From a bacterium (GTDB lineage: Bacteria; Patescibacteriota; Minisyncoccia; Minisyncoccales; CG1-02-41-26), in the NCBI GenBank assembly GCA_030648255.1, contig JAUSHZ010000007.1, positions 24,404-88,403 of the forward strand: a stretch of DNA of 64,000 nt. The letters are read 5' to 3'. The notes beneath the pieces are model-generated. The model worked only from the letters and a program-made list of their open reading frames with translations. It was not told where the DNA came from and ran no database searches. Made by a program: the position numbers and the translations under genes. Of this stretch, positions 2,869-49,863 are shown piece after piece; within the stretch, counting starts at the first letter, position 1; every line of letters begins with the position of its first letter.

Positions 2869-3085
2869 GTTAGAAGCTGTGTGAATTTTTAAATTTAATG
2901 ATTTGAAAATTCATTACAGATTCTTACACCCCGTTAAGTGCGAGCGATTAGCAAGCTACTTAACTGGGGTTTGTTTGTATTTCTATCCACACCCCAGTGA
3001 AGTAGAATTTGAGTACAAATTCACTTCACGGGGTAAATTCCGCTTGCCAATCGCGCTTCGCCTGCTGGCTCGCACTCTTGGAGCG
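2869..3085 (-). repeat. Intercistronic structured element, copy 4 (E1 / M-A / S1)
   Basis: infA stop to rpmJ ATG. S1 arm aaattccgcttgccaatcgcgcttcgcctgctggctcgcactcttggagcgtcat + tta stop. Confidence 0.9.
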
Positions 3086-3304
3086 TCATTTAAGTCTATA
3101 AACTATTCTGCCTCTTTTATCATCAATAGAGGCCATTTCAACCAACACCTTATCGCCCAACAAAATTTTTATGCGATTAATTCTAAGCTTCCCGGCCAAA
3201 TGCGCCAAAACCTCGTTTCCATTTTCCAATTGAATTTTAAATAAAAGACTAGGCAAAGCCTCTACAACTTGGCCTCTTTCTCTTATTGTATTAATTTGTT
3301 TCAT
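3086..3304 (-). CDS. infA: Translation initiation factor IF-1
   Basis: 72 aa S1-like OB fold; GQVVEALPSLLFKIQLENGNEVLAHLAGKLR..ILLGDKVLVEMASID. Confidence 0.93.
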   Translation of the reverse strand: MKQINTIRERGQVVEALPSLLFKIQLENGNEVLAHLAGKLRINRIKILLGDKVLVEMASIDDKRGRIVYRLK

Positions 3305-3320
3305 CTCGTTACGATTGTCT

Positions 3321-3349
3321 AAAATAGCAAATTATTCAAAAAAGGTCAA
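3321..3349 (-). promoter_or_regulatory. Sigma-70-type promoter for infA-rpmJ-rpsM-rpsK-rpsD-rpoA
   Basis: Minus sense TTGACC - 17 nt - TATTTT, preceded by GGGG; about 15 nt upstream of infA. Confidence 0.5.
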
Positions 3350-3358
3350 CCCCTTTGG

Positions 3359-4738
3359 CTAGAAAACCATTTCTATCTTTATCTTATCTAGGCTTTTTGG
3401 CGCTCTTTTTATCCAAAAAGGCCAAAATTGCGTGTCCAGTCGTTCAATTTGGGGGTAGCTATTATTCAATAAAATCTCCATATCTTCTTTAGATTTTCCA
3501 GCTAAATCCGCAATTAAGGCTGTTTGGTCAATATCATTATAAAGCTTGGCATCTGTTTTTAAATTAAAAATCAAACTCCCTTTTTCCGTAATGCTGCCTT
3601 TTGGAACTACGCTTGTCGCTAAGCTTTGTTCGTATAATTTCTTTGAAGAAGATAGTTTTGTATCAATAAAGCTTTTGGCCATATCCTGCAAATCTGATCC
3701 CTTAAAAACAATTGTCTTAGCTTTTATTTTTGCATAACAATTAAATTCAGCGAGGTTGGCGCCAACAGCTTGAGAACAAGAGAACTCGGGCTCGCCATAG
3801 TCAACTGATTCTTGGTTAAAAGAAAATCCAGCGGTTGTTTGCTCCTTCAAGCCCGAAACAGCCATTTTTTTTAACTCCCTAATCAAGCTTTCTTGAGCAT
3901 TATCCATATCTCCTTGAGTTACTTGATCAACTTCTTTCTGACCCCCGCCGTCAATTTTTTCTCTTGATTCACCCCAAACATTATAGTATAAAGCTGTTCC
4001 TGTTAATCCTGGAATAGAAAACTTAGCAGGGGCTATATTATATTCCTCTCCCTCCTGATCAGCGACAACCTGAACCTCTGTAATGCTTGGGGTTAATTTT
4101 CCATTAAACAATGTGGCTTGGGGCAAAGAAATCTTATTTTTTGCCCGATAAACCTTTCCATCTTTTGATGATATAAATCTTGTTCCTGCTTTTAAGTTTA
4201 AGGGCATTGGGGGATTAATATTATTGTAAACAAATATAGCGCCCGTTGCCCCAGATTGTTCTGTTTCTTTTCCAGTTGACTTAAATGTTTCCCATTTCTC
4301 TACTTCTTTTTCAATTACATTTCCGGGAATAATCTTTTTTTCAAAATCGATTTGCGCTTGAGAAAAAGAAACTTGAATCTCGTCTTTAATTGTAATTGGC
4401 TCTAATAGCGGTTTCACGCTTATTTCTGCTTTTGCCTGCATCGTTAAATATAAAAAGGCTCCCCCTAAAAGCAAAATGGCTACACCAATAACTATGGGAA
4501 TTTTTAGAGCAAGTCTTGGTAAAGTAAAAGAAACTCGAATTTCTTTTTTTCCCTTGCCACGTCGGAGTTCCGCAGGAACGGAGGCGGGTCTTTCTTTTTT
4601 CACCTCCCCCTTCTTCATCCCCTTTCTTGTAGGTGATTTTTTTTGAGGCTTAGTTGAAGCTAAAACAATTGGAAATTGTTCCTCTGTTTCTTCTGCTTCT
4701 TCCTCATCTGGATTTGTTATATCAATAATTTGCTTCAT
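3359..4738 (-). CDS. Membrane-anchored hypothetical protein with large extracytoplasmic domain
   Basis: 459 aa; Lys/Glu-rich N-terminus and one TM helix (IPIVIGVAILLLGGAFLYL). Weak memory-based resemblance to baseplate-J-like proteins annotated in CPR genomes. Preceded by a short element copy. Confidence 0.6.
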   Translation of the reverse strand: MKQIIDITNPDEEEAEETEEQFPIVLASTKPQKKSPTRKGMKKGEVKKERPASVPAELRRGKGKKEIRVSFTLPRLALKIPIVIGVAILLLGGAFLYLTMQAKAEISVKPLLEPITIKDEIQVSFSQAQIDFEKKIIPGNVIEKEVEKWETFKSTGKETEQSGATGAIFVYNNINPPMPLNLKAGTRFISSKDGKVYRAKNKISLPQATLFNGKLTPSITEVQVVADQEGEEYNIAPAKFSIPGLTGTALYYNVWGESREKIDGGGQKEVDQVTQGDMDNAQESLIRELKKMAVSGLKEQTTAGFSFNQESVDYGEPEFSCSQAVGANLAEFNCYAKIKAKTIVFKGSDLQDMAKSFIDTKLSSSKKLYEQSLATSVVPKGSITEKGSLIFNLKTDAKLYNDIDQTALIADLAGKSKEDMEILLNNSYPQIERLDTQFWPFWIKRAPKSLDKIKIEMVF

Positions 4739-13007: not shown

Positions 13008-13526
13008 CTAATCGCCTCGTTTTCGTGGGGCGTCATTTAACTGTTGTAAGGCCGCTACTGTTGCCCGGGCGATATTTAATTTATTTCTTGATCTTGACAA
13101 TAACTTTGATGATATATTCCTAATTCCAGCTAAACTGCAAATAACTCTTACCTGGCCGCCAGCCACCAACCCCCTACCTTTTGCCTGAGGCCTTAACAAA
13201 ACCCTTGCTGGGCCATACTTTGCTGTAACCTCATGGGGAATTGTTTCCTCAAACATTGGAACAGAAATTAAATTCTTCTTGGCCAACCGAGTTGATTTTT
13301 CAACAGCAATTGCCACATCAGGCCCCTTGGCCACACCTAATCCAATTTTTCCCTTTTTATTGCCAACCACCACAACTGCCCTAAACCTCATTTGCTTTCC
13401 TCCCTTTGTTACTCTTGTAACTCTGGCTAAATCTAAAACCACCGAGTCGAACTCATCTTTCGGTTTTGCTGGAAATTGACCTCTTCTTTCTCTATTAAAT
13501 TTTCCTTGTTGTTGCTGTTGTTCCAT
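13008..13526 (-). CDS. rpsE: 30S ribosomal protein S5
   Basis: 172 aa; VTRVTKGGKQMRFRAVVVVGN..GLGVAKG and S5 C-terminal domain. The last ~10 codons ([10 protein letters not shown]) are encoded by element sequence. Confidence 0.93.
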   Translation of the reverse strand: MEQQQQQGKFNRERRGQFPAKPKDEFDSVVLDLARVTRVTKGGKQMRFRAVVVVGNKKGKIGLGVAKGPDVAIAVEKSTRLAKKNLISVPMFEETIPHEVTAKYGPARVLLRPQAKGRGLVAGGQVRVICSLAGIRNISSKLLSRSRNKLNIARATVAALQQLNDAPRKRGD

Positions 13527-24898: not shown

Positions 24899-27001
24899 TT
24901 ATATTCTTTTTCCTTCCACTATTTCTTGCGCTATGTTACTTGGCACTCTTTCATAATGATCAAATTCCATTGTAAAAGCTCCTCTGCCTTGAGTCAATGA
25001 CCTAAGCGAAGTGGCATAGCCAAACATTTCTGACAAAGGCACCTTGCCTTTAATTATTTTTTGGCCAACTCTGTCATCTGTTTCTTCAATCAATCCCCTT
25101 CTTCTATTTAAATCGCCAATTACATCGCCAAAAAATTCTTCTGGGCAAGCTGCTTCAAGTTTCATGATTGGTTCCAAGACAATTGGAGTAGCTTTTTTAC
25201 AAGCTGCCTGAAACGCCATAGACGAGGCAATTTTAAAAGCGATTTCTGACGAATCAACGTCATGATAAGAGCCATCATACAAAGTTATTTCAATATCCAC
25301 CACTGGATACCCCGCCACAACGCCCTTGTTAGTAGCTTCTTTAACTCCTTTCTGAACGCCTGGAATAAACTCTTGAGGAATAGCCCCTCCTTTAATAGCA
25401 TTGATAAATTCATAGCCAAGCCCTCTTTCTTTTGGCTTAACTCTCAAATACACATGGCCATATTGACCTCGCCCGCCTGACTGCTTAATATATTTTCCTT
25501 CAGCTTCGGCCTGGGCCATAATTGTTTCTTTGTAGGCCACTTGGGGCTTGCCAGTATTGGCCTCAACGCCAAATTCTCTTTTCATTCTTTCAACTAAAAT
25601 ATCTAAATGCAATTCTCCCATACCCGACATAATTGTCTCCCCAGTTTCCAAATCCTCTTTAATCCTAAAAGTTGGGTCTTCATCAGATAACTTCTTTAAG
25701 GCAATAATAAGCTTTTCTTGGTCTGCCTTTGTTTTTGGCTCAATTCTAATAGAAATAACTGGCTCTGGGAATACTGGCTTTTCTAAAATAATTTGATTAG
25801 CTTCATCACATAAAGTGTGACCTGTGCCAGTTCTTCGCAAGCCCACGGTGGCTGCAATATCTCCGGCCATAATCTCATCAATATCTTTTCTGGAATTTGC
25901 ATGCATTTGCAAAATTCGGCCAATTCTTTCTTTTTCACCAGTAATTGGATTTAATAAATAAGAACCTTTTGTTAAAGTTCCAGAATAAACCCTAAAATAA
26001 GCCAAACTGCCCACAAATGGGTCGGTGGCAATTTTAAAAACTAAAGCTGAAAATGGCTCTGTGTCATCTGCTTTTCTGGTAATTTCTTTTTCAGTTTTTG
26101 GGTCAAGGCCCTTAACTGGTGGCAAGTCGGCTGGGCTTGGCAAATAATAGCAAACAGCGTCAAGCATTAGTTGAACGCCTTTATTTTTTAAAGCTGAACC
26201 CGCCATCACTGGAATAAGCTTATAAGCTAAAACTGATTTTCGTAAAGATGCCCTCACTTCGTCCACTGAAATTTCTTTACCTTCCACAAACCTGTCTAAT
26301 AAATCTTCGTCTTCTGAAGCAATTTTTTCCATCATATTATGCCTCCATTCTTTGGCTTTTTCTTTTAGGTTTTCCGGGATTTCATTTTCAATAACTTTTT
26401 CTCCTTTTTCTCCCTCAAATGTATAATATTTTTGCGTAATTAAGTCCACAATGCCTTTAAATCTTTCCTCGTGGTCATCGGGAAATTGAATAGCCACAGA
26501 CGACTTGGTAAGTTTTTGTTCAATAGAAGCCAAGCATTTATCAAAACTTGCTCCCATTCTGTCCAGTTTATTAACAAAACAAATTCGGGGCACTTTATAA
26601 TTGTCGGCCTGTCTCCAAACAGTTTCAGATTGAGCTTCCACTCCAGCTACTCCATCAAACACAACCACAGCCCCATCTAAAACCCGCAAAGATCTTTGCA
26701 CCTCGGCTGTAAAATCAATGTGGCCGGGAGTATCAATTAAATTAAATCTAAATAAATTGTCTTTTTCTTTTTCCATTCCAGTGGGCGTCCAATAACAAGT
26801 GGTAGCAGCTGATGTAATAGTAATGCCCCTTTCTCTTTCTTGTTCCATCCAATCCATTACTGCCTCGCCTTCGTGCACTTCGCCAATTTTATGGGAAATG
26901 CCGGTATAAAACAAAACCCGCTCCGAAACGGTTGTTTTTCCTGCGTCAATATGAGCAATAATGCCAATATCCCTTGTTTTTTCTATAGAAAATTCTCGCA
27001 T
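24899..27001 (-). CDS. fusA: Elongation factor G
   Basis: 700 aa; AHIDAGKTT, DTPGH and NKLD motifs plus EF-G domains II-V. Confidence 0.97.
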   Translation of the reverse strand: MREFSIEKTRDIGIIAHIDAGKTTVSERVLFYTGISHKIGEVHEGEAVMDWMEQERERGITITSAATTCYWTPTGMEKEKDNLFRFNLIDTPGHIDFTAEVQRSLRVLDGAVVVFDGVAGVEAQSETVWRQADNYKVPRICFVNKLDRMGASFDKCLASIEQKLTKSSVAIQFPDDHEERFKGIVDLITQKYYTFEGEKGEKVIENEIPENLKEKAKEWRHNMMEKIASEDEDLLDRFVEGKEISVDEVRASLRKSVLAYKLIPVMAGSALKNKGVQLMLDAVCYYLPSPADLPPVKGLDPKTEKEITRKADDTEPFSALVFKIATDPFVGSLAYFRVYSGTLTKGSYLLNPITGEKERIGRILQMHANSRKDIDEIMAGDIAATVGLRRTGTGHTLCDEANQIILEKPVFPEPVISIRIEPKTKADQEKLIIALKKLSDEDPTFRIKEDLETGETIMSGMGELHLDILVERMKREFGVEANTGKPQVAYKETIMAQAEAEGKYIKQSGGRGQYGHVYLRVKPKERGLGYEFINAIKGGAIPQEFIPGVQKGVKEATNKGVVAGYPVVDIEITLYDGSYHDVDSSEIAFKIASSMAFQAACKKATPIVLEPIMKLEAACPEEFFGDVIGDLNRRRGLIEETDDRVGQKIIKGKVPLSEMFGYATSLRSLTQGRGAFTMEFDHYERVPSNIAQEIVEGKRI

Positions 27002-27016
27002 AAGTTAATCGGTTTA

Positions 27017-27079
27017 GTCATTCTGAGCCAACGGGCGAAGAATCTCGGCCGAGACCCTTCGCTAATCACTTAGGGTGAC
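27017..27079 (-). repeat. GC-rich imperfect palindrome between rpsG and fusA
   Basis: gtcattctgagc..gcgaagaatctcggccgagacccttcgc..cttagggtgac. Arm mismatches are G-U compatible only in minus (mRNA) sense. Resembles the gtcattctgagc..gaagaatc palindromes seen in many genomes (memory). Confidence 0.7.
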
Positions 27080-27088
27080 AACAATATT

Positions 27089-27550
27089 TTATCGGGCTAG
27101 ATAAGCAAAAGCTTTGTTGGCTTCGGCCATTTTATGGACATTGATTTTCTTTTTCACTGCCTCGCCCTCCCCCTTGCTTGCCTGCATAATTTCTTCAGCT
27201 AATCTGCTGGCCATATCTTTGCCTTTTTTCTTTTGGGCAGATGAAATAAGCCATCTCATGGCCAAGCTCAAAGCCCGTTTGTCTTTAACCTCTCTGGGCA
27301 CCTGATAAGTAGCTCCCCCAACACGCTGTGGCCTCACTTCAACTTTTGGAGCAGCTTCTTCTAAAGCTTTTTCAAAAATATCCATTGGCTCTTGTTTGGT
27401 TTGCTCTTTGACAATATCAAAAGCGCTATAAACAATTTTTTGGGCAATGCTTTTTTTGCCTTGAGTCATTACAGTGTTTATAAATTTTGCAACAATAACG
27501 CTGTCATAAGATGAATCAGGCAATATTTCTCTTGTTTTAAATTTAGCCAT
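27089..27550 (-). CDS. rpsG: 30S ribosomal protein S7
   Basis: 153 aa; KFINTVMTQGKKSIA..VEVRPQRVGGATYQVP. Confidence 0.95.
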   Translation of the reverse strand: MAKFKTREILPDSSYDSVIVAKFINTVMTQGKKSIAQKIVYSAFDIVKEQTKQEPMDIFEKALEEAAPKVEVRPQRVGGATYQVPREVKDKRALSLAMRWLISSAQKKKGKDMASRLAEEIMQASKGEGEAVKKKINVHKMAEANKAFAYLAR

Positions 27551-27814
27551 GTTAGTAATCGTTAATGAATGAGTGGCGATTAGCCACGAGTGAATTTACG
27601 AGGACTTACACCCTGTGAAGTAAGATTTGAGGTCTCTTCCAAAAAGTGTATTCTCTTAAACTTTTAACTATTTTTCTCTCGCATCAATTGTTAATAATCG
27701 TACCCTCAAATCTTAATTTTAAATTTTTTACTAAAAATTTAAAATTACTTCACGGGGTAAATTCCGCCAACCGCTCAAACTTCGGCTCATCGCCTCGTTT
27801 TTGCTGGGCGTCAT
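27551..27814 (-). repeat. Intercistronic structured element, copy 17 (E4 / hybrid M with ~85 nt extra arm / S2)
   Basis: rpsL stop to rpsG ATG. Extra arm closed by aagatttgagg/ccctcaaatctt. The S2 arm ends gggcgtcat+tta. Confidence 0.88.
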
Positions 27815-28231
27815 TTAACTTTTAACTCTTTTTGCTCCGTATTTAGATCTTCCATTTTTTCTGCCAGCCACCCCTGTGGTATCTAAATGTCCTCTAACAA
27901 TATGATATCTCACGCCGGGTAAATCTTTAACCCTTCCCCCTCTCACCAAAACCATTGAGTGCTCTTGTAGGTTGTGGCCTTCCCCGCCAATATAAGCAGA
28001 AACTTCTTTGCCATTTGATAGCTTAACCCTGGCTACTTTTCGTAAAGCCGAGTTTGGTTTTTTTGGAGTAACTGTGAAAACCTTAGTGCAAATTCCTCTC
28101 TTAAATGGAGACGCGTAGTCCTGTGGCCTGTTTTTTAAAACATTAAAACCATAAGTCAAAGCTCTCATCTTGATTGTTTTTTTCACTGGCTTTCTTGGCT
28201 TTTTAATTAATTGATGAATTGTTGGACACAT
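27815..28231 (-). CDS. rpsL: 30S ribosomal protein S12
   Basis: 138 aa; [39 protein letters not shown]. Confidence 0.95.
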
Positions 28232-28366: not shown

Positions 28367-29317
28367 TTACTTACACTGCTGGGGTTTCACAGAGGTGCAG
28401 GTCAATGTTCCGTCAAGTGCTGTGCACCAAGTAATTCCTGCTTTGTCTGTATCTCCAATTCCCAAACAGCCAGTCAACGCTCCACTTCCTATCATAACTG
28501 TTGTCGAAGCAGAAGACGACACCTCCAAATTATACGCCGGCGTTGTCGTCCCAATCCCGATATTACCCTTCAATATTGTTTTCGTAATACTAGTATTTCC
28601 TAAAGTTACAGAATTGCTGCCATTGCCTATAGCACTCGCTCCTATTACTATTTCATTGGTATTCCCGTCTGCTCCAGCCATTGCGTTATAACCCTCATAA
28701 ACAGAGTTACTGGAAGTTGTATTGGCGGTAACACCATCGGCAATATAAACACCAGCCTTCGTGCCATTGGCGGTGTTTTGATAACCAGTATTATAGTAGA
28801 GAGCCTGCATACCGTTAGCGGTATTTTGATAACCAGTAGTGTTTGAGAAAAGAGCCTGCATACCGTTAGCGGTATTGTAATCGCCAGCAGTATTAGAATA
28901 AAGGGCATACACGCCATTAGCTGTATTTGTATATCCTGTAGTGTTAGAGTAGAGAGATCTATAACCAACAGCAGTATTATAACCCGCTTCATTTGTACTG
29001 GCTGTTGAACTTGCCATCCCCGCTTGATAGCCAACAAAAGTATTGTATAAGGATACATCATAATGACCTGCCTGGTAGCCAATATTAGTTTTAAAGCCAA
29101 TATTATTAAAATCAATTAGATCAGTAACCGCTATACCAAGAGAGGTTAGATATGTAGTAGTAGTTGTAGCTAATGTGCTAGTACTAAAAACATCTAGAGC
29201 TCCCCCAATAGAAACATTATTACCAATTGTGGTAACAGCTTGGGCGACTATAACTACGCAAAAAACCGTTGTTATGACGCTCACTACTACAGTAAAAATT
29301 TGCTTTTTATTATTCAT
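28367..29317 (-). CDS. Secreted/surface repeat protein (tail-fibre-like or adhesin-head-like repeats)
   Basis: 316 aa; N-terminal signal anchor and about 10 tandem 14-15 aa units (GYxNTANGxxALYSNT). The C-terminal KGNIGIGTTTPAYNLEV motif is recalled from fibre-like proteins. Confidence 0.7.
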   Translation of the reverse strand: MNNKKQIFTVVVSVITTVFCVVIVAQAVTTIGNNVSIGGALDVFSTSTLATTTTTYLTSLGIAVTDLIDFNNIGFKTNIGYQAGHYDVSLYNTFVGYQAGMASSTASTNEAGYNTAVGYRSLYSNTTGYTNTANGVYALYSNTAGDYNTANGMQALFSNTTGYQNTANGMQALYYNTGYQNTANGTKAGVYIADGVTANTTSSNSVYEGYNAMAGADGNTNEIVIGASAIGNGSNSVTLGNTSITKTILKGNIGIGTTTPAYNLEVSSSASTTVMIGSGALTGCLGIGDTDKAGITWCTALDGTLTCTSVKPQQCK

Positions 29318-29374
29318 AGCTTCTTCATTCTTAATTTTTTAGTTTATATCCTATACTACCTTTTACACTTAGTC

Positions 29375-29404
29375 AAACAAAAAACTAACACTTTTTGTTA
29401 GTTA
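29375..29404 (-). terminator. Rho-independent terminator closing the 29588-30052 transcription unit
   Basis: Minus sense AACUAACAAAAAGUGUUAGUU + UUUUUG. Confidence 0.65.
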
Positions 29405-29587
29405 AATTTTTACTTCACTTTACCCGCGGTCGCCGGTATTTTGAAGCATTGACAAATGACTTTGAAATTTGCTATTATTTAAATAACCTGCTGGATGCCT
29501 TAGTGACCACCGCTCGTAATTGACGGTCTGAGCTAAGGATTACTTGGGCACAGACCCAAGTCGATCCCTGCAGAACGAAGCCCGCGG
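29405..29587 (-). ncRNA. Structured GC-rich 3' region directly after the stop of the 154 aa ORF
   Basis: CCGCGG (29582-29587) pairs with CCGCGG (29424-29429). Inner three-way junction at 29488-29573: P1 cugcagggau/auccagcag, P2 cuuggg-ucugug-cccaag, P3 ccuuag..cuaagg. Confidence 0.45.
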
Positions 29588-30052
29588 CTATTTAAGCCGT
29601 GGTTTTCGTTTATCTGAAGAAAAAATGTCTAAAACATTATTGGCTTTTACTACAACATCTGGCTTTCTTTCACCTCGGAAAACAGCGATGGCCTCTTGAT
29701 GCGCTTTACTTTTCTTGCCTATTTGGCTAAAAGACACCTTTGGCGATTTAATTTTATTTTTATCAAACAAAGAAAGTAAGATGCTTCTAATTACGGCTTC
29801 GTGACCTGGGTATTCTCTATCAATAATTAAAGAATCAATTTTTTCGTTTTTAATTAGTAAAAATACTAAACCAGCAAAAATTCTAAATACAAAATTTTTG
29901 TGGGGCCTGTCTATCTCTCGCATAACAATTAAAACCTTTCGTTTTTCTTTAGCGCTAATCAAAAGAGTTCTCGCCTTACCATTAGCAAAACAAACTACCG
30001 TTAGTTTCCTAGTATCTTCAACTTTTCCTGATTGATCAATTTCTATAGGCAT
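29588..30052 (-). CDS. Hypothetical protein (154 aa from MPIEIDQSGK)
   Basis: ORF track 171 aa; the internal ATG at 30052 follows a plausible promoter (TTGTAA..TAGAAT). No family recognised. Confidence 0.6.
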   Translation of the reverse strand: MPIEIDQSGKVEDTRKLTVVCFANGKARTLLISAKEKRKVLIVMREIDRPHKNFVFRIFAGLVFLLIKNEKIDSLIIDREYPGHEAVIRSILLSLFDKNKIKSPKVSFSQIGKKSKAHQEAIAVFRGERKPDVVVKANNVLDIFSSDKRKPRLK

Positions 30053-30340
30053 AAAGTTATCATAATTTATTCTAATTCTAACATAAGGATTTTTACAAAA
30101 CAAAACCGCCCTAATAAAATCAAAAGCGGAATTTTGTTTAGTATTTTATTTTTTTATTTCGCTGGGAAGGCTGGAATATTTGGTCTTATCTGGATTGACT
30201 GGGCGGTGATGCTGCCGTCATAGCTAGCGATTTTTCATCACCTTTCAAGTTGTGGAAATATCATACCATTTTTCACCCAAAATTCAAACCCTAAAATACA
30301 ACAACGTTCGGAGTTCCGAACGCTGTCTAATATGCAAAGC

Positions 30341-30436
30341 TCATTTAATATTATGATTTTTGCCAAAAAATTGGCTAAAAAACACAACACACAAAACAAG
30401 AATACTAGCAATTAAAGTACTATAATTAATGGTCAT
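30341..30436 (-). CDS. Candidate small hydrophobic peptide (31 aa)
   Basis: Not in ORF track. AAAAGGAGGCGTAAATA-ATG, peptide MTINYSTLIASILVLCVVFFSQFFGKNHNIK. Followed by the hairpin cagcgttcgga/tccgaacgttg plus a U-run. Confidence 0.45.
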   Translation of the reverse strand: MTINYSTLIASILVLCVVFFSQFFGKNHNIK

Positions 30437-31401: not shown

Positions 31402-31686
31402 ATGGCAAAAGTATGTACAATATGTGGCAAGGGCTCATTAATGTTTGGAAAATTAAACAAGTTAAGGGGAAAATATAACCCAGCCCCAAAAGTAAGAAAA
31501 TACCCAAACCTTCAATGGCTAACTGTGCCAAAAGATGTTCGCAATAAAAAATTCACTAAGCTTGCTGGCCAAAGAATCGAGGCCTGTACTAAGTGTATTA
31601 AAACTTTATCTAAGCCCGTGCGACAGAAAAAGCAAAAAGAATCTCCAAAAGAAGAAGTAAAAGAACCCGCAAAAATCGGGGCATAG
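31402..31686 (+). CDS. rpmB: 50S ribosomal protein L28
   Basis: MAKVCTICGKGSLMFGKLNKLRGKYNPAPKVRKYPNLQW.. Start at the internal ATG 31402; Lys-rich C-terminal tail. Confidence 0.88.
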   Translation: MAKVCTICGKGSLMFGKLNKLRGKYNPAPKVRKYPNLQWLTVPKDVRNKKFTKLAGQRIEACTKCIKTLSKPVRQKKQKESPKEEVKEPAKIGA

Positions 31687-31700
31687 TATATCAGTATTAT

Positions 31701-31760
31701 GCAGGGCTGGGGGTCCTGTGAGCTGGGTGCGATTCCCAGTGCCCCGACTGTAAAGCCCGC
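31701..31760 (+). other. T-arm-like capped hairpin in the rpmB 3' UTR
   Basis: gc(a)gggct/agcccgc and gggg/cccc stems capped by ctggg-tgcgatt-cccag (5-bp stem, 7-nt loop, T-loop-like). Confidence 0.4.
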
Positions 31761-48215: not shown

Positions 48216-48956
48216 TTAAACACCCTTTTTATTACTAACCCACAACATCTCAAACACCTGCTTTTGCATCTGGCTAAATTCCGCATTTTCAATAACCACG
48301 GCCAAAAACTCTTTTTGCTTGCCCGATACCATTATAACTTTTTCATTATAAATAAACATTGTAGCTGAAAAAGAAAATTCTTTTGGTAAAAACCTAATTT
48401 CTCTCAAGCCCTTTTTCCCTTCGCTGACTCTTGCTTGAACTGATGGTGTCTCAAAGTCCAGCCAACGCAAAAAAACGCCTTGCTTTATTCGTTTTTGTGT
48501 CCAGCTTTCTTCGTATTGCTCGTCAATATGTTTTTTAAAATTTTCATAAGAAGCAATCCCGAGTAATTCTTTTGGCTTTTCTTTTAAGATGTTTCCATAA
48601 ACTGCTAAATAGCCTTCTTGCCCCTCAAAAAATCTCACTTTGGGCTTGTTGCCTGTTATGTTGTAAATCGATTTTAACTCTGGCAAGGACTCTTTAAACA
48701 TTTGAGCTCGCCTGTCTGCTATTTGCCCCAAAATTTCCGGGCTTTCAGCCACTAAGAATGTTTTAGCTCCTTTTTTAATTTGGCTAATAATGCCCTTTTC
48801 TTTTAAGCCATCGATGGCCGTATAAACAGTGGTGCGCCTAACCCCCGACTTTTTGCCCAATTCTTGCACTGTGGCCTGACCTAATTCCAAGGCCGCTAAA
48901 TAAACCTTTGTTTCATTGTCGCTCAAACCTAATTGTTTTAATGTTTCTATTGACAT
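48216..48956 (-). CDS. TrmB-family transcriptional regulator
   Basis: 246 aa; N-terminal wHTH LGLSDNETKVYLAALELGQATVQELGKKSGVRRTTVY. Confidence 0.8.
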   Translation of the reverse strand: MSIETLKQLGLSDNETKVYLAALELGQATVQELGKKSGVRRTTVYTAIDGLKEKGIISQIKKGAKTFLVAESPEILGQIADRRAQMFKESLPELKSIYNITGNKPKVRFFEGQEGYLAVYGNILKEKPKELLGIASYENFKKHIDEQYEESWTQKRIKQGVFLRWLDFETPSVQARVSEGKKGLREIRFLPKEFSFSATMFIYNEKVIMVSGKQKEFLAVVIENAEFSQMQKQVFEMLWVSNKKGV

Positions 48957-49115
48957 ATTTTTTTATTATATTATAATTATATTAGAGCTGGCAATAATAG
49001 CTTTTAGGAGACCACGAGGGTACCCTCCGCGCATGTGGAGGTCTTAATACTTGTGGTAAATCCTAGGAGACGCCACTCTATAAAAATCATCTCTTTTGAG
49101 GTGTTTTTTATTATT

Positions 49116-49784
49116 TTATTTTTTGTTAAATTCTTTCCAATAATCTTTAAATAATTCTTGTGAAGCAATAATATTACTGTGTAAAATTTCATAAAACTTT
49201 TTTCCAAATGGTCGGTTAGTGTAATAGCGATATAATGCCCCGCAAATCCAGTCGGCAATTTGTATATTAGAATCAGTTGCAGAATCAACAGTATTTACAT
49301 AAACGCTCGCTTTTTTAGATAGTTGCAAGATAATATGCAAACGCAAGTTTTCTTTAAATTCTTTTTGTGAAACTTTTTTCAAACTTCTATGGTCTAAATT
49401 AAGAATAATTTGTGGCTCTGCGTTAGGAAAAATAATATCAAGAGTTTTAGCTATTATCTCAGTATAAAGACGGCCCGACTCAACAGCGCTTTTTCTTCTA
49501 AATTCCAAAGGAATATTTTCTGATTTTAGAAAAGAATAAAAAATACGGATATTTTGTTGAGCTAAATATAATAGTGTTTCAGCGCGCAATTTATCAGTTA
49601 AACGAGCATCGGTGAACTTAACTTCCCTGCGGAATTTAAGTTTTTTGTTAGCAAATTTTGCGTCTTGCCACTTGCGAAACGCTTTGGCAGTGGTTCGTTG
49701 ATTGCCAATAATAAACCCGCCGACTATGAAAAGTTTTTCTTTATCACCTTGAAAATTACCAGATTCATCAATAAAAATATACAT
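49116..49784 (-). CDS. DUF3800 family protein
   Basis: 222 aa; MYIFIDESGNF N-terminus and C-terminal ..IQIADWICGA. Confidence 0.7.
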   Translation of the reverse strand: MYIFIDESGNFQGDKEKLFIVGGFIIGNQRTTAKAFRKWQDAKFANKKLKFRREVKFTDARLTDKLRAETLLYLAQQNIRIFYSFLKSENIPLEFRRKSAVESGRLYTEIIAKTLDIIFPNAEPQIILNLDHRSLKKVSQKEFKENLRLHIILQLSKKASVYVNTVDSATDSNIQIADWICGALYRYYTNRPFGKKFYEILHSNIIASQELFKDYWKEFNKK

Positions 49785-49835
49785 GCTATTAAGTAAATGT
49801 TGTCAGTTATGTCGACAAAACTAATCCACAAACTC

Positions 49836-49863
49836 ATTATAATACTAATTAAAAACCTGTCAA
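49836..49863 (-). promoter_or_regulatory. Promoter of the DUF3800 gene
   Basis: Minus sense GGGG-TTGACA - 16 nt - TATAAT. Confidence 0.6.

What the first reader, a model, noticed from the sequence alone, without database searches (positions are those of the whole stretch)
29375..30052. An uncharacterised 154-aa ORF is followed directly by a ~180-nt GC-rich structured RNA and a terminator
The stop codon (29588-29590) abuts CCGCGG, which can pair with CCGCGG at 29424-29429. Inside lies a tidy three-way junction at 29488-29573. P1 is CUGCAGGGAU/AUCCAGCAG, P2 is CUUGGG-UCUGUG-CCCAAG, and P3 is CCUUAG-..-CUAAGG with an internal GACC/GGUC. This is the most GC-rich non-coding patch in an AT-rich neighbourhood. 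A rho-independent terminator at 29375-29404 closes the unit. A protein gene with a dedicated 3' structured RNA recalls guide-RNA or antitoxin-RNA arrangements (omega-RNA, type III TA). The protein is small and unrecognised, and I saw no repeats or known ribozyme or riboswitch cores.
Basis: partly seen in the sequence, partly recalled or inferred. Interest (0 to 1): 0.55.

Follow-up and report, generated by a model that had tools for sequence, protein, structure and literature searches.

The report
RNase H-like gene with convergent sRNA
A small, uncatalogued RNase H-like protein gene is always paired with its own strongly promoted, highly structured small RNA made from the opposite strand at the gene's end; this is a compact new relative of the unexplained "DUF3800 protein plus RNA" pairs, and its function is still unknown.

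Summary
The ORF (29588-30052, minus strand, 154 aa) and the three-way-junction RNA (29488-29573) are both real and conserved, but the RNA is not a 3' extension of the mRNA. It is a separate gene on the plus strand. It has a near-consensus promoter (29449-29478), a predicted start near 29485, a covarying three-way junction, and its own terminator (29582-29602) overlapping the ORF's stop codon. Covariation is strong: 23 of 27 pairs show compensatory changes in 38 distinct sequences. G-U versus A-C counts (92 vs 13) fix the strand. The protein belongs to a family of about 1,190 clusters, mainly Patescibacteria and Chloroflexota, with no Pfam match. Its model has the RNase HII fold, as does the genuine DUF3800 protein elsewhere in this window (49116-49784). 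That protein carries an Rfam DUF3800-V RNA in the same convergent layout. Across 80 genome loci the gene nearly always has a convergent promoter-RNA-U-run unit, in at least three RNA classes, none in Rfam, and no other conserved neighbour. Verdict: a new protein/RNA variant of the known but unexplained DUF3800-type pairing. The RNA most likely binds and controls the nuclease, in a toxin-antitoxin or defence-like manner; this is inferred, not shown.

The parts
29588..30052 (-). ORF of 154 aa. It is a member of a large uncatalogued family with the signature I-D-Q-S-G-K...E, D-x-E-Y-P-G-H-E and K-K-S-x-A-H. The predicted fold is that of RNase HII.
30069..30098 (-). Candidate promoter of the ORF (TTGTAA-18-TAGAAT, 9 of 12 matches). 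It is much weaker than the RNA's promoter.
   Evidence: Pattern scan. Across loci only 5 of 64 ORF-upstream regions hold a near-consensus promoter, against 52 of 68 for the RNA.
29449..29478 (+). Promoter of the sRNA: -35 TTGACA (29449-29454), 18-nt spacer, TG-extended -10 TATTAT (29473-29478).
   Evidence: Scan tool gives 11 of 12 matches plus TG. The same promoter position is conserved in all 14 aligned loci. It is enriched on the antisense strand at 52/68 loci, against 6/68 on the sense strand and 1-2 of about 57 in displaced controls.
29485..29612 (+). Predicted sRNA transcript of about 125 nt: three-way junction plus terminator.
   Evidence: MFE -56 kcal/mol, z = -6.9, 0 of 200 shuffles fold as well. 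The start is inferred from the -10 box. The end is inferred from the terminator.
29488..29573 (+). Three-way junction.
- P1: 29488-29491/29570-29573 and 29493-29496/29564-29567.
- P3 outer: 29498-29504/29532-29538.
- P3 inner: 29509-29516/29521-29527, with a conserved GUAAUUG-type loop.
- P2 (variable hairpin): 29542-29548/29555-29561.
   Evidence: CM R1 scores 87.5 bits at 29486-29579 (+). 19 of 27 pairs show compensatory changes in 14 sequences, 94.9 % of cells are paired, and 0 of 500 shuffles reach this. In 38 distinct sequences 23 of 27 pairs show compensatory changes. G-U/U-G cells number 92 against 13 A-C/C-A.
29582..29612 (+). Intrinsic terminator of the sRNA (CCGCGGCTATTTAAGCCGTGG followed by TTTTCGTTTA). 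It overlaps the ORF's stop codon (29588-29590) and last codons.
   Evidence: Scan tool. In the other class-1 loci, P1 followed directly by a U-run plays this role. The hairpin is retained in the orphan RNA of L099, where the ORF is gone.
29375..29404 (-). Weak hairpin (CTAACA/TGTTAG) plus T-run on the gene strand. It is a possible terminator of the ORF's mRNA and lies just upstream of the next gene's promoter (29376-29348). It is not part of the sRNA.
   Evidence: Read from the sequence. The scan tool did not call it.

Best explanation
This is a self-contained two-gene module.

**Gene 1 (minus strand).** It encodes a 154-aa protein with the type-2 RNase H (RNase HII) fold and a rearranged set of invariant polar residues: D6, Q7 and E12 on or after strand 1, D78 and E80 after strand 4, and H118 on the helix after strand 5.

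**Gene 2 (plus strand).** It is a small RNA of about 125 nt made from its own near-consensus promoter. The RNA folds into a three-way junction with a nearly invariant P3 arm and ends at a terminator that abuts or overlaps the ORF's stop codon. The two transcription units therefore converge.

**Shown here**
- The conservation of the pair.
- The strand, promoter and terminator of the RNA.
- The RNA's structure.
- The protein's fold.
- That RNA class follows protein clade.
- The absence of any third conserved gene.

**Inferred**
- The RNA is the protein's specific partner. It binds the protein and keeps its nuclease activity in check or directs it, as an RNA antitoxin or regulator does in toxin-antitoxin and abortive-infection modules.
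- Convergent transcription, and pairing between the sRNA and the read-through 3' end of the mRNA, may add a second layer of repression.

**How it relates to known systems.** It works like, and is probably an evolutionary cousin of, the DUF3800 protein / DUF3800-RNA pairs. One such pair sits in this same window in the identical layout.
For: **Pairing**
- 15 genome loci carry the same RNA directly at the gene's 3' end.
- 34 further sites carry a second RNA class. Every hit of both models is on the antisense strand.
- In an RNA-first scan of metagenomes, 26 of 34 matches have the gene adjacent and convergent.

**Strand**
- Promoter enrichment is 52/68 on the antisense strand, against 6/68 on the sense strand and about 2/57 in displaced controls.
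- The scan tool calls both the promoter and the terminator in the window.
- G-U cells number 92 against 13 A-C cells.

**Structure**
-.

**Fold**

**Same layout at the DUF3800-V locus**
- Promoter 48950-48977, RNA 48983-49080, terminator 49088-49103, gene stop 49116.

**Module autonomy**
- No neighbour family occurs in more than 7 of 80 loci.
- Several copies occur per genome. L003, L021 and L056 come from one MAG, and L073 holds two modules in tandem.

**Pointers towards a TA-like logic**
- The RNA promoter is far stronger than the ORF's.
- Intact RNAs survive without an intact gene in 4 independent contexts (L097/L103, L099, L105, L107). Genes without a recognisable RNA number at most 3 of 68.
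- DUF3800 domains serve as effectors in type VII retrons and accompany Cas12a2/a3 loci (PMC7736814, PMC10910872, PMC13594972).
Against: - There is no experimental evidence of binding, toxicity or nuclease activity.
- The glutamate of the RNase H DEDD tetrad is an invariant glutamine here (DQSG in 239 of 263 family proteins, never DESG). The protein may therefore be catalytically altered or inactive.
- There is no PADLOC hit and no relatives on viral contigs.
- Multi-copy modules retained in very small CPR genomes could equally reflect a useful cellular function.
- Orphan RNAs could be served in trans by a gene copy elsewhere in the genome.
- Sequence homology to DUF3800 is not detectable. hhalign probability is about 1 % and only the N-terminal IDxSG stretch aligns.
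- The RNA classes cannot be linked to each other or to DUF3800-V by covariance models.
Confidence: 0.45

Rival explanations
1. Ribonucleoprotein with a cellular (non-selfish) role. The RNA is the substrate, cofactor or scaffold of the RNase HII-like protein, for example in processing or surveillance of RNA or RNA-DNA hybrids. It is not an inhibitor.
For: P3 is nearly invariant while the proteins are only 45-50 % identical, which suggests a precise RNA-protein interface. The family is very widespread in genome-reduced Patescibacteria. There are no defence-library or viral hits. Weinberg et al. judged DUF3800-type RNAs to have features of sophisticated biochemical function (PMC5737381).
Against: Distribution is patchy and multi-copy, genomic context varies, and there is no linked pathway gene. 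Several unrelated RNA architectures serve one protein family, which is easier to reconcile with co-evolving addiction or immunity pairs than with one conserved biochemical task.
Confidence: 0.25
2. Pure cis-antisense control in the manner of type I systems. The sRNA acts only by convergent transcription and by pairing with the 3' end of the ORF's mRNA, without binding the protein.
For: The geometry is convergent, with the RNA's terminator at or inside the ORF's 3' end. In several loci the ORF's last codons overlap P1/P2. No terminator lies between the ORF and the RNA gene on the minus strand, so the mRNA probably reads through the RNA gene.
Against: Antisense function alone would not demand a covarying three-way junction with an invariant loop-rich arm located mostly outside the ORF. 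Orphan RNAs keep their promoter, structure and compensatory changes without any ORF opposite. There is no cognate-specific complementarity to the ORF's translation start region.
Confidence: 0.15
3. One reading: the structured element is part of the ORF's own mRNA (a 3'-UTR RNA, processed guide or cis element) on the minus strand.
For: All helices are mostly Watson-Crick, so the junction also folds on the minus strand (z = -3.3). A weak hairpin plus T-run follows at 29375-29404.
Against: G-U against A-C asymmetry is 92 to 13; pairing falls from 95.1 % to 85.2 % of cells on the gene strand. A conserved consensus promoter and a U-run or terminator occur only on the opposite strand. Orphan copies have their own promoter.
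Confidence: 0.05
4. Mobile element with an RNA-guided or RNA-assisted nuclease or recombinase, comparable to omega-RNA/TnpB or bridge-RNA systems.
For: The protein has an RNase H-like fold as in RuvC/DDE enzymes, the module has several copies per genome, and contexts vary.
Against: No terminal inverted or direct repeats flank the module. The protein is a single 150-aa domain. The only hypervariable RNA segment (P2) is fully base-paired, and the 5' leader is only a few nucleotides, so there is no candidate guide. The window and its 90 %-identical relative L001 share flanking genes.
Confidence: 0.05

Closest known systems
DUF3800 protein (PF12686) with DUF3800-I to -XI RNA motifs (Weinberg et al. 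2017, PMC5737381). The nearest case is DUF3800-V (RF02964), present in this window at 48983-49080 next to the DUF3800 gene at 49116-49784.
   Same: - Both have an N-terminal I-D-x-S-G strand.
- Both have a structured sRNA with its own consensus promoter, transcribed convergently and terminating at the gene's stop codon.
- Both are enriched in the candidate phyla radiation.
- One protein family is served by several unrelated RNA architectures.
- The function is unknown in both cases.
   Different: - The protein does not match PF12686.
- The protein shows no profile-profile similarity to DUF3800 beyond about 30 N-terminal residues.
- It has DQSGK instead of DESG, and [AGS]-H instead of the C-terminal QxxD motif.
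- It is about 70 residues shorter.
- The RNA scores 16.4 bits against a gathering score of 37.4 for DUF3800-V and matches no other Rfam family.
- The RNA is a three-way junction, whereas the DUF3800-V model is nested and unbranched.
Type III toxin-antitoxin systems (ToxIN, CptIN, TenpIN)
   Same: A protein nuclease is paired with a dedicated structured RNA. The module is self-contained, multi-copy and found in varied contexts. The RNA is expressed more strongly than the protein.
   Different: The RNA is a single unit rather than tandem repeats, and it is convergent rather than upstream and co-transcribed. The protein has the RNase HII fold rather than the ToxN/AbiQ fold. Toxicity has not been shown.
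Type I toxin-antitoxin loci with 3'-overlapping antisense RNAs (for example txpA/RatA and bsrG/SR4 of Bacillus subtilis; cited from general knowledge)
   Same: The sRNA gene is convergent, and its 3' end meets or overlaps the 3' end of the protein gene.
   Different: The protein is a 154-aa soluble alpha/beta enzyme-like domain, not a short hydrophobic peptide. The RNA has a conserved complex fold lying mostly outside the overlap.
Type VII retrons (RT + msr/msd + DUF3800 effector; PMC7736814)
   Same: An RNase H2-like DUF3800-type protein is functionally tied to a structured non-coding nucleic acid in a compact accessory module.
   Different: There is no reverse transcriptase gene nearby. The RNA has its own promoter and terminator and shows no msr/msd-like inverted repeats.
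Housekeeping type-2 RNase H (RNase HII/HIII)

Membership tests
Pfam DUF3800 (PF12686) | Match to the family HMM at or above the gathering score | tested here: not met
   None of the 41 family members matches PF12686, even at E <= 1. The window's other protein (49116-49784) does match, at 47.7 bits.
Pfam DUF3800 (PF12686) | Profile-profile similarity to genuine DUF3800 proteins | tested here: not met
   hhalign of A1 against A4 gives probability 0.9 %, with 30 aligned columns at the N-terminus only.
Pfam DUF3800 (PF12686) | N-terminal DE motif and C-terminal QxxD motif (as described in PMC7736814) | tested here: not met
   This family has D-Q (DQSG[KR] in 239 of 263 proteins, never DESG) and [AGS]-H. 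The window's DUF3800 family has D6-E7 and Q175..D178.
Pfam DUF3800 (PF12686) | RNase H2-like fold | tested here: met
   [not shown]
DUF3800-associated RNA motifs (Rfam DUF3800-I to -X, including RF02964 DUF3800-V) | Covariance-model score at or above the gathering threshold | tested here: not met
   The only related hit is DUF3800-V at 16.4 bits against a threshold of 37.4, at 29467-29561 (+). There are no gathering-level hits at 20 related loci. DUF3800-XI of the 2017 paper could not be checked by name.
DUF3800-associated RNA motifs (Rfam DUF3800-I to -X, including RF02964 DUF3800-V) | Consistent placement next to a DUF3800-type gene, often followed by an intrinsic terminator | tested here: met
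   The convergent promoter-RNA-terminator layout is the same at both loci of the window. The partner gene, however, resembles DUF3800 only at the level of fold.
Type III toxin-antitoxin | Antitoxin RNA made of tandem direct repeats, located upstream of and co-transcribed with the toxin | tested here: not met
   The RNA is a single copy, lies on the opposite strand and is downstream of the gene. No tandem repeats occur in 29250-30350.
Type III toxin-antitoxin | The protein is toxic and is neutralised by binding its RNA | not testable with these tools
   This needs expression and binding experiments.
Type I toxin-antitoxin | Small hydrophobic toxin peptide | tested here: not met
   The protein is a 154-aa alpha/beta globular domain with a confident RNase H-like model.
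Type I toxin-antitoxin | Antisense RNA overlapping the toxin mRNA | tested here: inconclusive
   The convergent genes meet at the stop codon. Any overlap of the transcripts is inferred from the lack of an intervening minus-strand terminator. No transcript data are available.
OMEGA (TnpB/IscB with omega-RNA) | RNA on the same strand overlapping the 3' end of a RuvC-type nuclease gene of about 400 aa, with a variable guide and transposon ends | tested here: not met
   The RNA is on the opposite strand, the protein is a 154-aa RNase HII-fold domain, there is no unpaired variable segment, and there are no terminal repeats.
Type-2 RNase H (RNase HII/HIII) | DEDD catalytic tetrad | tested here: not met
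   The second residue is an invariant Q. Later invariant residues are D78, E80 and H118. Their equivalence to RNase HII positions is inferred from the secondary-structure order, not from a residue-level superposition.

The most novel reading that the evidence does not exclude
The IDQSGK family and its convergent sRNAs may be a previously unrecognised, very widespread class of RNA-protein addiction or immunity modules in Patescibacteria and Chloroflexota. In this reading a structured sRNA, in at least three unrelated folds that co-evolve with protein clades, directly neutralises or licenses a minimal RNase HII-fold nuclease. At 154 aa plus about 95 nt of structured core, it would be the smallest tractable model for the unsolved question of what DUF3800-type proteins do with their RNAs. 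The answer would likely transfer to DUF3800 domains in type VII retrons and in Cas12a2/a3 loci.
Probability: 0.3. Interest if true: 0.75.

Novelty: new variant of a known kind. Interest (0 to 1): 0.6.

Why it matters
The link between DUF3800 proteins and a set of unrelated structured RNAs has been an open puzzle since 2017. [quoted passage not shown]

This finding extends the puzzle in three ways:
- It adds a protein family that Pfam does not cover (about 1,190 clusters at 50 % identity).
- It adds at least two covariance-modelled RNA classes that Rfam does not cover.
- It sharpens the anatomy. The RNA is an independent, strongly promoted, convergent gene that terminates at the protein's stop codon. 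RNA class follows protein clade, and the RNA can outlive the gene.

Together these features turn a vague "association" into a testable two-component model with a very small protein and RNA.

DUF3800 domains also occur in retrons and beside Cas12 effectors. Knowing how the RNA controls or uses the RNase H-like domain could therefore bear on defence systems, and possibly on RNA-controlled nucleases as tools.

Tried and rejected
1. Rfam at gathering and at permissive thresholds found nothing but a sub-threshold DUF3800-V match.
2. Pfam, NCBIfam, PADLOC and PDB sequence searches for the protein found nothing meaningful.
3. hhalign against a single DUF3800 sequence and against a 33-sequence DUF3800 profile gave no significant similarity.
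5. I tried to link the RNA classes with covariance models:
   - R1 (class 1) finds only weak matches in a few Chloroflexota-type loci.
   - R2 (core of class 2) hits neither the finding's RNA nor the DUF3800-V RNA in the window.
   - R2's best window hit, 13471-13504, lies inside the ribosomal protein S5 gene and is a chance match.
   - The resemblance I saw by eye (stem, YGAC-C, hairpin, CU(U/G)A(A)G, stem) therefore remains an unproven impression.
6. A scan of viral contigs for the protein family found no relatives.
7. A search for terminal repeats or target-site duplications around the module found nothing convincing.
8. A test for cognate-specific pairing between the sRNA and the ORF's translation start region showed no difference from non-cognate pairs (p = 0.49).
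9. Literature searches for functional work on DUF3800 RNAs found none beyond the 2017 description and remarks on fold and associations. The 2017 supplement is not held.
10. In the model-fitted pooled alignment A7, helix P1 is out of register (67 % paired). For P1 I rely on the MAFFT alignment A2 (91 % paired).
Full report
**1. What the sequence shows**

- The minus-strand ORF at 29588-30052 encodes 154 aa beginning MPIEIDQSGK.
- The region just 3' of the stop codon is the local GC maximum: 0.54 at 29500-29599 against 0.23-0.44 around it.
This holds on either strand, with z = -3.3 (minus) and -3.5 (plus) for 196 nt.
- Rfam has no family at threshold here. The only suggestive sub-threshold match is DUF3800-V at 29467-29561 on the plus strand, 16.4 bits against a gathering score of 37.4.
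- The same window holds a true DUF3800-V RNA (48983-49080, plus strand, 41.9 bits). It lies directly 3' of a minus-strand gene (49116-49784) that matches Pfam DUF3800. This second locus became the key comparison.

**2. The protein is a real, large, uncatalogued family**

- A word-indexed search found 173 homologues, all unnamed or "hypothetical" and with no Pfam domain. The few that a source names come mostly from Patescibacteria.
- An exhaustive HMM search found 1,191 representatives at the 50 % identity level, 851 of them below E = 1e-10. Nearly all are stand-alone proteins of about 150 aa.
- Invariant residues in a 41-sequence alignment are D6 Q7 S8 G9 K10 E12 K37 F59 D78 E80 Y81 A117 H118.
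- Across 263 family proteins the motifs are DQSG[KR] in 239 (never DESG), DxEY in 257 and [AGS]H in 231.
- Pfam, NCBIfam, PADLOC and PDB sequence searches give nothing.

**3. Fold**

- AlphaFold2 with the family alignment gives a confident model: pLDDT 91.3, pTM 0.88. Its order of elements is beta1-beta2-beta3-alpha-alpha-beta4-alpha-beta5-alpha-beta-alpha.
- This agrees with published statements that DUF3800 resembles RNase H2 with a rearranged catalytic site (PMC7736814, PMC10910872).
- By sequence, however, the two families are not demonstrably related. hhalign aligns only the N-terminal "M-x-I-x-I-D-x-S-G" strand and the next strand, at about 1 % probability. The DUF3800 hallmarks (N-terminal DE, C-terminal QxxD) are replaced by DQ and [AGS]H.
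- From the order of secondary-structure elements I infer that D6/Q7, D78(+E80) and H118 occupy the positions of the RNase HII D-E, D and D residues. This is an inference, not a measured superposition.

**4. The RNA is conserved next to the gene, on the other strand**

- I fetched 80 loci from species-representative genomes.
- nhmmer with the window's downstream region hit 14 of them, always directly after or overlapping the homologue's stop codon.
- Read on the gene strand, the conserved block is: A-run, GCUGGAG, a hairpin whose sequence differs in every locus, a nearly invariant arm, CAUCCAGC, about 35 AT-rich bases, then TGTCAA.
- Read on the opposite strand, this is: TTGACA, 16-18 nt, a TATAAT-like hexamer, about 8-12 nt, the three-way junction, then a U-run. 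That is a complete small-RNA gene converging on the ORF.

Three independent tests support this orientation:
- (i) The generic scan tool calls a plus-strand promoter at 29449-29478 (TTGACA-18-TATTAT, 11 of 12 matches, TG-extended). It also calls a plus-strand intrinsic terminator at 29582-29602, overlapping the stop codon.
- (ii) A near-consensus promoter pointing at the gene's 3' end is present in 52 of 68 loci on the antisense strand. The same segments have 6 of 68 on the sense strand, and displaced control segments have 1-2 of 57-58.
- (iii) In helices P2 and P3 of 38 distinct sequences there are 92 G-U/U-G cells against 13 A-C/C-A. This means 95.1 % of cells are paired on the plus strand and 85.2 % on the gene strand.

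The predicted transcript 29485-29612 folds as junction plus terminator, with z = -6.9.

**5. Covariation**

- On a MAFFT alignment of 14 loci, RNAalifold recovers the junction, and 19 of 27 pairs show compensatory changes.
- In that alignment 94.9 % of cells are paired. None of 500 column shuffles reaches any of the five measures, and sliding the partners by 1-3 columns drops pairing to 24-47 %.
- After adding 34 metagenomic copies found by an RNA-first pattern scan, a model-fitted alignment of 38 distinct sequences shows 23 of 27 pairs with compensatory changes, again 0 of 500. P1 is out of register in that alignment.
- P2 is a pure structural spacer, since all 7 of its pairs covary.
One arm lies upstream of the -35 box, the other is half of the terminator, and loci other than the closest relative lack it.

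**6. The pairing extends across the family, but the RNA fold does not**

- The class-1 covariance model R1 gives 15 strong hits and a few weak ones. All are antisense and all sit at the gene's end. These are the loci whose proteins are closest to the window's, at 40-90 % identity.
- The remaining loci show the same promoter-structured RNA-U-run unit in the same place but with other sequences.
- I modelled the commonest alternative: a stem, CGAC-C, a hairpin, CUUAAG and the closing stem, with clear covariation and many G-U pairs. It hits 34 sites, all antisense at gene ends, including non-seed loci and second gene copies.
- A third type occurs in Chloroflexota-like loci.
- None of 20 such loci has an Rfam hit at threshold.
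- R2 does not detect the window's RNA or its DUF3800-V RNA. I therefore cannot show that the classes are homologous.

**7. Module autonomy and asymmetry**

- All-against-all comparison of flanking ORFs finds no neighbour family in more than 7 of 80 loci. The unit is therefore gene plus RNA only.
- Copies are multiple. Three loci come from one MAG (L003, L021, L056) and two from another (L009, L067). L073 holds two modules in tandem, with different RNA classes.
- There are no flanking repeats and no relatives on viral contigs.
- In the RNA-first scan, 26 of 34 RNA copies have the gene convergent and adjacent. Two more (L086, L109) are cut by a contig end and cannot be assessed.
- In L097/L103 (one shared context), L099 and L105 the RNA keeps its promoter, junction and terminator but has no gene. 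In L107 only a 23-residue remnant of the gene remains.
- L097 and L103 differ from each other by compensatory changes, so the orphan RNA is under selection.
- In L099 the terminator hairpin that overlaps the ORF in the window is retained without the ORF.
- Conversely, genes without a recognisable RNA number at most about 3 of 68.

**8. How it most likely works**

Shown:
- The module consists of two convergent genes.
- The RNA promoter is far stronger than the ORF's (52/68 against 5/64 near-consensus).
- The RNA arm is more conserved than the protein.
- RNA class follows protein clade.
- The RNA can persist alone, while the gene rarely does.

Inferred:
- The RNA is the specific ligand of the RNase HII-fold protein and restrains or licenses it. 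This is the logic of an RNA antitoxin or a defence-system regulator.
- Convergent transcription and pairing with the read-through mRNA may add repression.

I put about 0.85 on the anatomy and on "dedicated partner RNA of a DUF3800-like protein". I put about 0.35 on the toxin-antitoxin or defence-like mechanism specifically. The overall figure of 0.45 reflects the combined statement.

Points against are the invariant Q in place of the catalytic E, the absence of defence-library or phage links, and the complete lack of experimental data. A simple trans-antisense action on the ORF's translation start is not supported.

**9. Comparison with known systems and novelty**

- The closest known kind is the DUF3800 protein / DUF3800-RNA association. 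The window itself contains a textbook example in the same geometry: a 12/12 promoter at 48950-48977, the RNA at 48983-49080, a terminator at 49088-49103 and the gene stop at 49116.
- Membership in Pfam DUF3800 and in Rfam DUF3800-V was tested and not met. Fold and architecture are shared.
- Type III and type I toxin-antitoxin systems, omega-RNA systems, type VII retrons and housekeeping RNase HII each share some features and fail others (see the membership table).
- I found no paper describing this protein family or these RNAs.
- I therefore file it as a new variant of a known but functionally unexplained kind.
- Caveat: the eleventh motif of the 2017 paper (DUF3800-XI) and that paper's supplement could not be checked.

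**10. Source organism**

The closest locus is L001, with 90 % protein identity and shared EF-G flank genes. It comes from a Candidatus Paceibacterota MAG. This fits the AT-rich, gene-dense window.

Noticed in passing
window 48950-49863: A second, textbook module lies in the same window. It comprises a DUF3800 gene (49116-49784, -) with a 12/12 consensus promoter (49863-49836), and a convergent Rfam DUF3800-V RNA (48983-49080, +) with its own 12/12 promoter (48950-48977) and terminator (49088-49103). This one genome segment therefore carries two different RNase H2-like protein/sRNA pairs.
   Followed up: yes
L097:3234-3324, L103:1384-1474, L099:318-411, L105:4679-4769, L107:3097-3187: These are orphan class-1 RNAs with an intact promoter, junction and terminator but no adjacent gene. 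In L107 only a 23-residue N-terminal remnant of the gene remains. L097 and L103 share a context and differ by compensatory changes in P2 and P3.
   Followed up: partly
L073:3001-3537 and L073:4178-4696: Two family genes lie in tandem, each with its own convergent RNA of a different class: an R1 hit at 3447-3537 and an R2 hit at 4622-4661. L075 has a second gene copy and L079 a second RNA hit.
   Followed up: partly
L002, L005, L009, L073 (gene 3' ends); proteins P0025, P0028, P0042, P0069 and others: In some homologues the ORF runs on into the RNA gene. The C-terminal tails (for example ..KKGWRSRS..) are the translation of the complement of P1/P2, so the coding sequence and the structured RNA overlap on opposite strands.
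   Followed up: partly
window 28367-29317 (-): The next gene downstream encodes a 316-aa protein with an N-terminal hydrophobic segment and many short repeats of the type YxNTANG / GYQNTANG. It resembles the head repeats of surface adhesins. Its candidate promoter is at 29376-29348.
   Followed up: no
window 24899-28231 (-) and 31677-31747 (+): An rpsL-rpsG-fusA cluster lies next to the module, and a tRNA (46 bits) lies at 31677-31747. The same EF-G flank occurs in L001, so the module is syntenic in the closest relative.
   Followed up: partly
window 13471-13504 (+): This is the best window hit of the class-2 core model R2 (15.3 bits, E 0.11). It lies inside the ribosomal protein S5 gene (13008-13526, -) and is a chance match.
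   Followed up: yes
L099, about 150-400 nt beyond the orphan RNA (RNA-sense orientation): There are two direct copies of a stretch of about 55 nt (GTGGCGGTGACCTACTTTCGCGCAAAAGCACTATCATGGGCCTCAAACCATTTCA). Its nature was not examined.
   Followed up: no
L076:2595-2634 (-): A class-2 RNA core hit (35.9 bits) lies upstream of the family gene at 2974-3456 rather than at its 3' end. It may be another orphan or may belong to a neighbouring copy.
   Followed up: no
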